DNA of 59,021 nucleotides, filler included, from Circinaria calcarea (lineage: Eukaryota): assembly GCA_051942165.1 (NCBI GenBank). It is 5 parts of 5 records of this genome, joined end to end, with 100 filler letters (N's around TTAATTAATTAA, not from the genome) between each part and the next. Parts side by side here need not be neighbours in the genome. Positions count along the whole stretch, not along the records: positions 35,481 to 47,202 come from JAVECS010000655.1; 4 more parts are not named here. One strand, given 5' to 3'. This document shows, in pieces, positions 11,732-47,302 of this stretch. Position 1 is the first letter of the stretch. The number at the start of each line of letters is the position of its first letter. Under the pieces are notes generated by a model that was not told the origin of the DNA, did not search any database, and saw only the letters and a list, made by a program, of their open reading frames with translations. A program made the translations under genes and the position numbers.

Positions 11732-11831
11732 NNNNNNNNNNNNNNNNNNNNNNNNNNNNNNNNNNNNNNNNNNNNTTAATTAATTAANNNNNNNNNNNNN
11801 NNNNNNNNNNNNNNNNNNNNNNNNNNNNNNN
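11732..11831. other. Artificial contig linker (N44-TTAATTAATTAA-N44)
   Basis: Exactly 100 bp; the palindromic 12-mer has stop codons in all six frames; the same linker occurs four times. Confidence 0.99.
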
Positions 11832-23557: not shown

Positions 23558-23657
23558 NNNNNNNNNNNNNNNNNNNNNNNNNNNNNNNNNNNNNNNNNNN
23601 NTTAATTAATTAANNNNNNNNNNNNNNNNNNNNNNNNNNNNNNNNNNNNNNNNNNNN
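23558..23657. other. Artificial contig linker
   Basis: N44-TTAATTAATTAA-N44. Confidence 0.99.
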
Positions 23658-35380: not shown

Positions 35381-35480
35381 NNNNNNNNNNNNNNNNNNNN
35401 NNNNNNNNNNNNNNNNNNNNNNNNTTAATTAATTAANNNNNNNNNNNNNNNNNNNNNNNNNNNNNNNNNNNNNNNNNNNN
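35381..35480. other. Artificial contig linker
   Basis: N44-TTAATTAATTAA-N44. Confidence 0.99.
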
Positions 35481-35915: not shown

Positions 35916-37289
35916 TCAGCCGTGAGCGCCCCGACATTGTCGCACATCCTCATGAGCTACAACTTTCTGCCAGGTGCAGCTCTGGACTTCCTTGACGGGA
36001 TTCGAAGCATCCGGGAACTTTTCGAATTGTTGAAACAGAGAAACGTTGACGGTCGGAGGGAGTGCGTGCAGAGCAAGGTCGCCCTGTGGTTTGTCCTTGC
36101 CTCCCGATCTGTCTCTGCCTCGCCCTTTGTCTCTCTTCCGCCGACCGCCGATATTTGAGAGCGCTTGGTGTCCATAAAATGCTCTCCCACCGACTGCGGT
36201 CGCGAGGGGGTTGTTGACGCAGATTTCGATCAGGTCCTCCACAGCTGCGAGTACTTGTTTCCATGTCAGGGTCACAGACGTCGATGCGGATATGCCGATA
36301 CTGCAGGTGTCCGCGGCAAAGAATTTCGTCGTTCCTGCTGTCAACGAAACGCTGTCCGCGAGAGACTGGAGCTGGGAATATCGCAAATGGCTGCAGTCGG
36401 CCTGCCGGGGGTTTCCAAGCTTAGCGTCACATTCATAGGTCATCGTGCTATCCCGGGTCGTCTCTGTACGGTCCCCAGACGGACCAGACCCTTCCCACCA
36501 AGTACCACCATGACCAATTTCGCGTTGCATTCGGCCCCAGTTGTAACCAATTCTCTCCGCCGTATTGCTCAAACTATTCCAGGTTGGACTGTCGCGACGC
36601 ATATTTAGAAGTGCCCCATGGAGCGAGTTGAAAATCGCTCCTCCAATAGTGGGATCAAAATGGCCTGGACTAAGAATAGGAGTAGTTCCAGACACGGTGA
36701 CTGTAAAGAATGTCGCCACCAAAGCTGTCGTCGTCCAAGGCAAGCATTAGTATTAGATCCAAGAAAGTCGAGGAATGGACCGGTTAAATCATACGGTATG
36801 TCCGCTGGAAGTCCAAGTTTACGATGGGCGATCCTAGGTAATCTATCGTATTTAAAATGCCCCAAGTGATAAATCCTCCCGTAAAAGGGGCGCCTGCCAC
36901 GCATTCGTTGATAACCCAACCAGCCATTTCTCGGAACCTGTCTGGTGCGGTATCAAATGACGCAGATCCTCGGTACGCCTCCGCTGGGTCAACAAGATCA
37001 ACTGTGATCTGACATGTCCCTATTAAACATCTTAGCCTCTGAGAAATTTAAAAAGACCTGATGCACTGCCGCCACCCTCACCATGTCGATACACTAGAGG
37101 GAATTGGAAATGCGTCGGTATATGGTTATAATTAACATAGTGAATGGGATGGATACCCCGTGGCATCAAAGCTTCTGCCTGGAAGCAGTCGTGAGGTGAT
37201 TGAATGGCATTGTCACCGCCATAAGTGTAATACGGGTCGCAGAAATGGAAATCAGGTCTTACAGGTGCTACTGCCAATAAATTGGCCAT
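35916..37289 (-). CDS. Cys-rich 413-aa protein with two repeated KP4/Ecp2-like modules
   Basis: Exons 37082-37289, 36795-37019 and 35916-36724 splice in frame (introns 37020-37081 and 36725-36794). A C..DC..C.I...I..CV..GG pattern occurs twice. The gene model is solid; the fold assignment is inference. Confidence 0.7.
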
Positions 37290-37804
37290 TCCCGACGATT
37301 CAAAGGGTTGAAGAACGGTAGCAGGTACTAACGAAGTTAGTACAGATGAGAATGAAGACAGTTCATACTTTATGAGACCCTAATCGCGGCTATACCAAGG
37401 GCGATAAGGGTGTTTGGGAACTTGCGGAAATAAGTATCGAGTGAAACGTGATAGCTGAAACATTTAATCCCTAAAAAACCTATTCTAGTACTGTTATCTT
37501 TGCGATATTTTCCCTTCTTCATGCGTTTTGGAGTTCGCGCGTGGGAAGAAGTGTTAATCGCTAATTTGACAGAGAATGATCGTTGAATAAGAGGTGAAAT
37601 ATAACAAGAACGGCAATACGTTTGAAAGTTCACCAAACAGCCTTGATACATCAGTACTTGGAAACCCTAGGGCACTATGAGATCACTAAGCGGACATCTA
37701 TTATCAAACAGATACAGAGTGGCCTTAAAAGAAAGGGACGAGAACGCAAGTTATATATTGATGACAGTCCTTTTCGATACTCTTAAAGTAGCCTTAAATA
37801 CAAT

Positions 37805-38776
37805 ATGACAAACAGTTTCAAGTTAATAAAGTATTTGATTCTACCATTTTTCTGTCTTGTCTCTTATGTTATCGGCCGAGCAACGATAATAGCTGTCGCC
37901 AGCAAGGAAGATATATATGATGAAATAAAAGCGCAAGAGCAGTCGCTAAGAAACACATATCCCCGGTTAGACTCTCTAGCACCTACCAGCAGCTCGACGT
38001 CAGTACCGAATCATGGTGCAAGACAGGATCCAGCAATCTGCTAACGCAGCCACAGAAATATATCTTTGGATCTCTCTGTCTTTAATAGCACAGGGCACGA
38101 TATTTCTGACAGCTTCCCCATCCTCTACCACCGGCAAACAGCCCCCTCCACCAAGAGCCGCAAACGAGACCGTACTGTCCCTTCCCGCCCTATAAACGAT
38201 TGCCCTAATAATCATGACTTCTTATATTCTCTCTGCTCGCCAAATCACAGTCCTCGCGCTTGGAGCCTTGTCTGTAGAGCACGGGCAGGGGCGGGGGTTC
38301 AGCAGAGCAGCATTCTACACTGGGGCGAATGTAAGTCGACTGAGTTCTGCGTTAACGGCCGATCAATGAGAGCGGTACGAAGTCACGGTTATGTCGAGTC
38401 AACTGCTTGGTGCGTCGACATTGAGAATCATATTGAGATCGCCGGGATATTAGCGGGCGGTCAGACGGGAAGATCGAAATCGGTACAAGTCGATTTCAAC
38501 GCGGCAGCGGGAAAGCTGGGATCTATTGAGGCGGTGTTGACAACCCCGGACAGACGCTCTTCGATCAAAGCCCGTAGCATGGAGATTAAGGCTCAGAGAG
38601 CTGATATTATTGGCAATGTGCAGTCGTGGCGGACGCTCAAGGCCGGAGATCACCATTGTAGTAACTGTGCGAGAGTGGGAATCGTGAATGTTCCCATTGG
38701 AACGCAGAGGATTAGGGCGCATGTCGAGTTGATGCCGCAGACGTTGAACGGATTGCTAAATCTAGTATCTGTTTAA
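37805..38776 (+). CDS. Secreted Cys-rich 293-aa protein, FOLD/SIX-effector-like, Kex2-processed
   Basis: Signal peptide (KLIKYLILPFFCLVSYVIG). A 90-nt intron at 37966-38055 (GTTAGA..GCTAAC..CACAG) removes the in-frame TAA. Pro-region ends in KSRKR, followed by 6+2 Cys in the mature part. Confidence 0.75.
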
Positions 38777-39218: not shown

Positions 39219-39268
39219 AAAAGCGGATGGTGGGTTTTAAAAGCGGATGGTGGGTTTTAAAAGCGGAT
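39219..39268 (+). repeat. 20-bp tandem repeat x2.5 (AAAAGCGGATGGTGGGTTTT)
   Basis: Exact copies at 39219-39238 and 39239-39258, partial copy at 39259-39268. Confidence 0.9.
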
Positions 39269-47202: not shown

Positions 47203-47302
47203 NNNNNNNNNNNNNNNNNNNNNNNNNNNNNNNNNNNNNNNNNNNNTTAATTAATTAANNNNNNNNNNNNNNNNNNNNNNNNNNNNNNNNNNNNNNNNNN
47301 NN
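47203..47302. other. Artificial contig linker
   Basis: N44-TTAATTAATTAA-N44. Confidence 0.99.

What the first reader, a model, noticed from the sequence alone, without database searches (positions are those of the whole stretch)
35916..38776. Head-to-head pair of Cys-rich effector-like genes sharing a ~515-bp AT-rich bidirectional promoter
Seen: two unrelated Cys-rich proteins are transcribed divergently (ATGs at 37289 on minus and 37805 on plus). The spacer and both outer flanks look more AT-rich than the neighbouring housekeeping DNA. Established: co-operating fungal effectors can be arranged this way, for example SIX3/SIX5 and SIX8/PSE1 in Fusarium oxysporum, which share a promoter. Inference: this is a co-regulated two-component secreted module (FOLD-like plus KP4/Ecp2-like), perhaps for symbiont interaction or antimicrobial competition. 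Because the minus-strand partner lacks a clear signal peptide, a toxin/immunity or chaperone relationship is also possible. I do not know this pairing from the literature; it is the best candidate for a new system here.
Basis: partly seen in the sequence, partly recalled or inferred. Interest (0 to 1): 0.75.

Follow-up and report, generated by a model that had tools for sequence, protein, structure and literature searches.

The report
Back-to-back FOLD and tandem-KP4 fungal genes
In what is probably a lichen fungus, a gene for a secreted effector-type protein sits back-to-back with a gene for an antifungal-type protein that has no export signal, and broken remains of the same pair in other fungal DNA suggest the two have travelled together for a long time, though nothing yet shows that they work together.

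Summary
Both genes are real and diverge across a 515-bp spacer (39.8% GC). The plus gene encodes a 306-aa signal-peptide, Kex2-type FOLD protein (model matches SIX6, Z 11.3). The minus gene encodes a 413-aa protein of two KP4-like domains; its lack of a signal peptide is family-wide, not a missed exon. Both belong to expanded families in this genome (about 14 and about 50 genes), and all named relatives of the minus gene come from lichen fungi. Against an obligate module: 0 of 40 and 0 of 10 testable paralogue loci are paired, and one intact relative elsewhere faces a methyltransferase gene. For an old pairing: 4 of 10 metagenome loci hold a FOLD gene's 3' end on the opposite strand, abutting a KP4-like fragment of the same subfamily, as expected if a head-to-head pair lost its middle; their flanks differ from the window's. 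Best reading: an old, subfamily-restricted, probably co-regulated pair whose products act in parallel (0.45); passive linkage 0.3; true partner module 0.2. Co-expression and binding remain open. I found neither this pairing nor lichen FOLD proteins in print, and the scan had no look-alike on other DNA.

The parts
35916..37289 (-). Gene for a 413-aa leaderless protein with two KP4-like domains joined by a helical hairpin; exons 37082-37289, 36795-37019, 35916-36724
   Evidence: Splice signals and open spliced frame; model of the 53%-identical homologue P0009 matches Zt-KP4; internal repeat, 4+4 conserved Cys
37020..37081 (-). Intron 1 of the coding region (62 nt, GT-AG)
   Evidence: exon frames join the homologue alignment
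36725..36794 (-). Intron 2 of the coding region (70 nt, GT-AG)
37328..37395 (-). Probable 5' UTR intron of the minus gene (68 nt; a 41-nt alternative shares the acceptor)
   Evidence: Branch site and acceptor seen, donors; no RNA check
37290..37804 (.). 515-bp ATG-to-ATG spacer, 39.8% GC, mild RIP-type dinucleotide bias; candidate shared promoter
   Evidence: promoter function is inferred
37260..37546 (.). Stretch with an 81%-identical decayed copy on contig C255, not next to a FOLD gene
   Evidence: 33 of 50 substitutions are C>T or G>A in the copy
37805..38776 (+). Gene for a 306-aa secreted FOLD (SIX6-like) protein: signal peptide, pro-domain, dibasic site, six-Cys N-domain, beta-sandwich C-domain
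37999..38049 (+). Intron of the plus gene (51 nt, best of six frame-keeping options)
38162..38167 (+). Lys-Arg candidate Kex2 site before the N-domain
   Evidence: present in 12 of 12 family members with that region
35381..35480 (.). Artificial contig join; DNA to the left is not a true neighbour

Best explanation
An old gene pair confined to one subfamily of each of two expanded lichen-fungal families. A short AT-rich divergent promoter probably switches both on together. The FOLD protein goes through the ER and Golgi, loses its pro-domain at the dibasic site and acts outside the hypha, most likely binding wall carbohydrate or a surface protein of the algal partner or of other microbes. The tandem KP4-like protein has no signal peptide; it is kept in the cell or released non-classically or on damage, and most likely acts as an antifungal or lectin-type defence protein. 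They are co-deployed rather than obligate partners. Shown: gene structures, folds (as models), lack of a leader, family sizes, the relic pair. Inferred: lichen lifestyle, shared promoter, processing, localisation, targets.
For: Divergent ATGs 515 bp apart with the lowest upstream GC among 44 family loci compared. FOLD 3' end on the opposite strand 48 bp from a KP4-like fragment in L116-L119; the fragment is only 43% identical to the window's protein but falls in the same subfamily (UFBoot 87, 32 of 57 rows, excluding 18 of 18 other own-genome paralogues in the tree); no flanking gene is shared with the window. A uniform shuffle gives 0.035-0.053 such pairs per genome (gene number assumed). Purifying selection on the minus gene (pN 0.025, pS 0.088). 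Literature: KP4-fold proteins inhibit fungi (PMC12382754, passages) and are thallus-induced in a lichen (10.1101/2024.08.16.608140, section 11); FOLD proteins are proposed carbohydrate binders induced in symbiosis (10.1101/2022.12.16.520752, passages).
Against: 0 of 40 testable KP4-like and 0 of 10 testable FOLD paralogue loci in this genome are paired. The intact subfamily member in L110-L114 faces a methyltransferase gene. The only second case is a broken relic, resting on about 27 residues; with the full profile L116 and L117 score only E 0.28 and 0.15, and the tail-only profile was built after seeing the hit. An exclusive clade of relic plus window gene is unresolved (UFBoot 31 and 69). 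Invariant cysteines and a dibasic loop (94 of 104) fit a secreted protein better than a cytosolic one.
Confidence: 0.45

Rival explanations
1. Passive linkage: two members of large, fast-moving families landed side by side once and were inherited together without selection on the pairing; each gene has its own promoter and job.
For: Both families are large and otherwise unpaired; L110-L114 unpaired; secreted-protein genes lie near repeats in lichen fungi, which raises chance adjacency above the uniform estimate (10.64898/2026.06.16.732702, passages); one origin explains both the window and the relic; a decayed second copy of half the spacer could explain part of its AT bias.
Against: The pair persisted while the KP4-like gene diverged to 43% identity and all flanking genes changed; exact head-to-head geometry in both cases.
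Confidence: 0.3
2. Dedicated two-component system: the leaderless tandem KP4-like protein and the FOLD protein depend on each other, as toxin and immunity factor or as cargo and escort, like SIX5/Avr2-type pairs.
For: Same layout as known co-operating pairs (PMC10942635 and PMC12018790, passages); both genes were inactivated by one deletion in the relic; lack of a leader would suit an intracellular partner.
Against: About 50 leaderless paralogues do without a linked FOLD gene; the two products start in different compartments; known pairs join other fold classes and both partners are secreted effectors; single-step loss of both genes is also what adjacency alone allows.
Confidence: 0.2
3. The minus gene has a missed upstream exon with a signal peptide, so this is simply two ordinary secreted effectors.
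For: An in-frame splice acceptor lies 39 nt upstream of the ATG; conserved Cys and a dibasic loop.
Against: The start is conserved in position and sequence in P0009 and L110; 44 of 47 first exons in this genome carry a Met 3-34 residues before the first conserved motif, none with a strong hydrophobic stretch (max 2.13 against 2.6-3.0 for FOLD leaders); NCBI-annotated relatives also lack one; the only in-frame upstream extension is basic and polar, not a signal peptide.
Confidence: 0.05

Closest known systems
FOLD effectors (Fusarium SIX6, Avr1/SIX4, Avr3/SIX1; MycFOLDs of arbuscular mycorrhizal fungi)
   Same: Signal peptide, dibasic pro-domain site, six-Cys N-domain, beta-sandwich C-domain; model matches SIX6 (Foldseek E 6e-8; Z 11.3, rmsd 4.2, 158 aligned), profile matches SIX6 by sequence (E 4e-7); family expanded as in symbionts.
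   Different: 13-14% identity to SIX6; host is probably a lichen fungus, while the review read says FOLD members were found only in plant-interacting species; linked to a KP4-like gene.
KP4-fold proteins (Zt-KP4-1, UmV-KP4, Coprinus Y3 lectin, Gnk2/DUF26; secreted KP4-like clusters of Xanthoria parietina)
   Same: N-domain model matches Zt-KP4 (Z 7.3, rmsd 3.7, 107 aligned; tied with Y3, Z 7.2); four conserved Cys per domain; expanded in a lichen fungus.
   Different: Two domains in tandem with a helical hairpin between them, about 400 aa, no signal peptide, no KP4 or Hce2 Pfam match; Z under 8 is moderate and the model is of a homologue.
Head-to-head effector pairs (Avr2/SIX5, SIX8/PSE1-PSL1, AvrLm10A/B)
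   Same: Two unrelated Cys-containing genes transcribed divergently from a short spacer.
   Different: Those join a KP6-type (SIX5-like) protein with ToxA-like or other partners, both secreted, and the pairing is nearly systematic in that subclade; here FOLD plus leaderless tandem KP4, paired in a minority of loci.

Membership tests
FOLD effectors | Signal peptide and Kex2-type pro-domain | tested here: met
   Hydrophobic N-terminus (2.96); Lys-Arg at residues 103-104, in 12 of 12 members; cleavage itself not tested
FOLD effectors | Six conserved cysteines in the N-domain | tested here: met
   Cys 116, 127, 140, 159, 165, 186; profile matches SIX6 residues 5-93, E 4.2e-7; disulfide pairing not measured
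FOLD effectors | Dual-domain structure with C-terminal beta-sandwich | tested here: met
   Model pLDDT 71, pTM 0.68; SIX6, Avr1 and Avr3 among the top five Foldseek rows; SIX6 Z 11.3, next chain 7.8
FOLD effectors | Secreted and induced during host colonisation | not testable with these tools
   Needs RNA or protein data
KP4-fold superfamily | Alpha/beta sandwich fold of Zt-KP4/UmV-KP4 | tested here: met
   N-domain of homologue P0009: Zt-KP4 top in both searches (Foldseek prob 1.0, E 0.007; Z 7.3), then Y3, LDL, DUF26, KP4, Gnk2; moderate scores; second domain only by repeat similarity (E 2.8e-5, prob 74%)
KP4 (PF09044) or Hce2/Ecp2 (PF14856) subfamily | Pfam profile match | tested here: not met
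   No match in 5 exon pieces or 29 members; only a weak Atlas lead, score 0.81, Hce2 on 13% of members
KP4-like secreted effectors | N-terminal signal peptide | tested here: not met
   None in the window gene, 35 longer relatives or 44 first exons with a Met; hydropathy screen, not SignalP
KP4-like secreted effectors | Antifungal activity | not testable with these tools
   Needs an assay
Head-to-head co-operating effector pairs | Divergent genes with a short shared spacer | tested here: met
   515 bp ATG to ATG
Head-to-head co-operating effector pairs | SIX5/KP6-type member with a ToxA-like or similar partner, both secreted | tested here: not met
   Folds are FOLD and KP4-like; one lacks a leader
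Head-to-head co-operating effector pairs | Pairing conserved across genomes | tested here: inconclusive
   Relic pair in 4 of 10 metagenome loci, unpaired in 5, 1 uninformative; 0 of 40 and 0 of 10 paralogue loci in the own genome
Head-to-head co-operating effector pairs | Co-expression and physical or functional dependence | not testable with these tools
   Open; needs RNA and bench work

The most novel reading that the evidence does not exclude
A conserved, mobile two-gene module of lichen fungi in which a secreted FOLD protein and a leaderless tandem-KP4 protein depend on each other (self-protection or escort), a fold combination not described among effector pairs, sitting on top of a large family of leaderless tandem-KP4 proteins that secretome-based surveys cannot see.
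Probability: 0.2. Interest if true: 0.8.

Novelty: new variant of a known kind. Interest (0 to 1): 0.55.

Why it matters
Lichen fungi have few molecular handles on how they manage their algae and microbes. Two results stand even if the pairing is passive: about 14 FOLD genes in a probable lichen fungus widen a family described from plant-interacting fungi only, and a family of about 50 genes here (750 clusters at 50% identity in public data) encodes tandem KP4-like proteins without signal peptides, which signal-peptide-based effector surveys would drop. If the pairing is selected, it adds a new fold combination to the short list of co-operating effector pairs and gives a testable link between a secreted and a leaderless protein.

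Tried and rejected
RNA: no RNA holder was listed for the region; no evidence either way, so introns and co-expression are unchecked by reads. Complex prediction of the FOLD protein against the minus protein given as three exon pieces: no answer (score 0.19, mark 0.34, alignments not used, controls not folded); no evidence for or against binding. Pfam names neither protein; the Atlas gave nothing usable for the plus protein and only leads under 0.9 for the minus family. No relatives in viral or prokaryote collections; the FOLD alignment could not be used for a collection scan, so pairing was tested only from the KP4-like side outside the own genome. The second KP4-like domain was not folded alone; the wide search barely tested it. 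Rejected: that the 95% copy on C831 shows the minus gene moving alone; it is a contig-end overlap like several others and probably an allele. Rejected: a weak C831-L110 synteny hit (one 28-residue piece). Rejected: that the FOLD tail in L116-L119 is an antisense shadow of KP4-like coding DNA; 67 other loci give at most 8.6 bits. Rejected: the 38003 donor for the plus intron (wrong phase). No terminal repeats around the pair or the relic. Earlier notes of the scan: nothing alike; one unrelated head-to-head pair listed. Literature searches with no hit: lichen + 'Fol dual-domain', lichen + SIX6 + structural; two searches listed nothing on leaderless tandem KP4 proteins or a FOLD/KP4 pair (listings only, two of the listed papers read in passages). 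Six lichen genera are absent from the FOLD table of PMC10942635 (file 59); supplements of the bioRxiv lichen papers could not be seen and 9 of 21 supplements of PMC12382754 were not searched, so either family may be listed there.

Full report
Observation. The two start codons, their orientation and the 515-bp spacer are as described. The minus gene has three coding exons and gives 413 aa with 10 Cys; the plus gene has one intron, best placed at 37999-38049, and gives 306 aa with 9 Cys. The spacer is AT-rich (39.8% GC; 0.45% of 1,121 windows of that size are as low; lower than the upstream 515 bp of 43 of 43 unpaired paralogues). The flanks (43%) are ordinary intergenic values here. The window is a chain of contigs sorted by size and joined by artificial linkers, so the locus contig C655 begins 435 bp beyond the minus gene's stop and the DNA further left is not a neighbour. 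On the right the true neighbour is a DUF676 gene.

Plus gene. It has a hydrophobic leader, a pro-region ending in Lys-Arg (12 of 12 family members with that region), six N-domain cysteines and a C-terminal CxxC. A model from a 14-sequence alignment (pLDDT 71) matches SIX6, Avr1 and Avr3 (Foldseek E 6e-8, 1e-6, 9e-4; SIX6 Z 11.3, rmsd 4.2, 158 aligned, the only chain of 48,161 above Z 8), and the profile finds SIX6 by sequence (E 4e-7). These are the defining features in PMC10942635 (passages and section 7) and PMC12018790 (passages). It is a FOLD protein. Six protein searches of the own genome converge on 19 contigs, about 14 genes after merging overlaps (the merging is my judgement).

Minus gene. 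The spliced product could not be folded as such, so I modelled the 53%-identical full-length homologue P0009 (pLDDT 80). Its N-domain matches Zt-KP4, the Y3 and LDL lectins, DUF26, KP4 and Gnk2 (Z 7.3 to 5.6; moderate scores). The C-domain repeats the same strand-helix order and aligns to the N-domain as a profile (E 2.8e-5, probability 74%), each with four Cys kept in 97-100% of 29 sequences. So it is a tandem KP4-like protein, without Pfam KP4 or Hce2 match. The missing signal peptide is a family trait: the start is conserved with P0009 and L110, 44 of 47 first exons found in this genome have a Met 3-34 residues before the first motif and none is strongly hydrophobic, nor are 35 longer public relatives (many of those are metagenome gene calls that could miss an exon, but the NCBI-annotated ones agree). 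The family covers 61 contigs here, about 50 genes, and 750 clusters in public data. All 11 named relatives (2 of 32, 7 of 10, 2 of 10 clusters) come from genera I recall as lichen-forming Lecanoromycetes, so the host is probably one too (inference). Unexplained: invariant cysteines and a dibasic loop in the second domain (94 of 104) look like features of a secreted, processed protein.

Is the pairing more than chance? Against: I fetched 60 other KP4-like and 16 other FOLD loci of the own genome; none holds the other family, even at permissive thresholds; 40 and 10 of them had enough upstream DNA to tell (at least 1.5 and 2 kb). Three small FOLD-matching contigs found otherwise or later were not all fetched (C3351, C4859). 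One metagenome scan seeded with the minus gene's subfamily gave 10 loci. L110-L114, one locus in close relatives (91-99.7% DNA identity), carry an intact 47%-identical gene facing a methyltransferase gene, with no FOLD gene in 7 kb. L115 has no upstream DNA.

For: in L116-L119 (two versions, 89% alike over 1,020 bp) the KP4-like sequence begins abruptly at its second domain, and 48 bp to its left, on the opposite strand, lies the last 27 or so codons and stop of a FOLD gene. The full FOLD profile scores it at E 2.5e-4 in L118 and L119 but only 0.28 and 0.15 in L116 and L117. A tail-only profile, built afterwards, ranks these four loci first (25.4, 25.4, 15.1, 14.4 bits) among 15,433 frames from 477,844 bases of 71 loci, the next at 8.6. 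The L119 tail aligns to the C-terminal end of 6 of 18 FOLD sequences, the window's among them, at 63-70 against shuffle maxima of 37-45. This is the geometry left when a head-to-head pair loses both 5' halves and the spacer; both pieces are frameshifted. The relic's KP4-like part is 43% identical to the window's, in the same subfamily (UFBoot 87; all 18 other own-genome paralogues in the 57-row tree fall outside; the scan was seeded from this subfamily, so that is partly by design), though a clade of only the paired genes is unresolved (31, 69). No flanking gene is shared. A uniform shuffle predicts 0.035-0.053 such pairs in this genome (gene number assumed), more if such genes cluster (10.64898/2026.06.16.732702, passages). 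So the adjacency is old and survived rearrangement, but it is seen intact only once and one origin explains both cases.

How it most likely works. I favour (0.45) a co-regulated but non-obligate pair: the FOLD protein is secreted, matured and binds carbohydrate or a surface target (proposed for FOLD proteins in 10.1101/2022.12.16.520752, passages); the tandem KP4-like protein is retained or released non-classically as an antifungal or lectin-type defence (Zt-KP4-1 inhibits fungi, PMC12382754, passages; secreted KP4-like proteins are thallus-induced in Xanthoria, 10.1101/2024.08.16.608140, section 11). Passive linkage gets 0.3, a true partner module 0.2, a missed signal exon 0.05. Promoter sharing, localisation and targets are all inferred.

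Comparison and novelty. [quoted passage not shown] I did not find lichen FOLD proteins or this pairing in print, with the limits that subscription papers and the bioRxiv supplements were not searched.

Noticed in passing
window 11732-11831, 23558-23657, 35381-35480, 47203-47302: The gaps are artificial joins between size-sorted contigs (piece lengths 11731, 11726, 11723, 11722, 11719); neighbourhoods across them are not real.
   Followed up: yes
L032/L049 (C831:1-1636) and pairs C2772/C2222, C525/C2239, C909/C374, C721/C949, C2010/C3913, C5401/C128: Many family loci come as 88-95% identical pairs, several at contig ends, suggesting two haplotypes or strains in the assembly; counts of paralogues are inflated by this.
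   Followed up: partly
L033:1501-1784 (C255:14230-14513): Decayed, RIP-like copy of window 37260-37546 (half the spacer, the 5' UTR intron and first codons of the minus gene) between an MFS-like and a methyltransferase-like ORF.
   Followed up: partly
L116:1-5700: The relic in L116 lies about 2 kb from a block of 14-15% GC, typical of heavily mutated repeat DNA; L119 lacks that block.
   Followed up: no
L003:96-1067 and L004:2705-3667: A KP4-like paralogue lies tail-to-tail with an unnamed 320-aa ORF made of two similar halves, possibly another lineage-specific family.
   Followed up: no
L110:7923-9302; P0016-P0021, P0076: One subclade of the minus-gene family carries an extra Cys-rich C-terminal domain; it is the unpaired one in L110-L114.
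   Followed up: no
window 39219-39258: Exact 20-bp tandem duplication downstream of the plus gene.
   Followed up: no
A2/A4 family alignment, loop before the last strand of domain 2: A basic cluster is kept in 94 of 104 sequences in a flexible loop; it could be a processing site or a nuclear signal, which matters for where a leaderless protein goes.
   Followed up: partly
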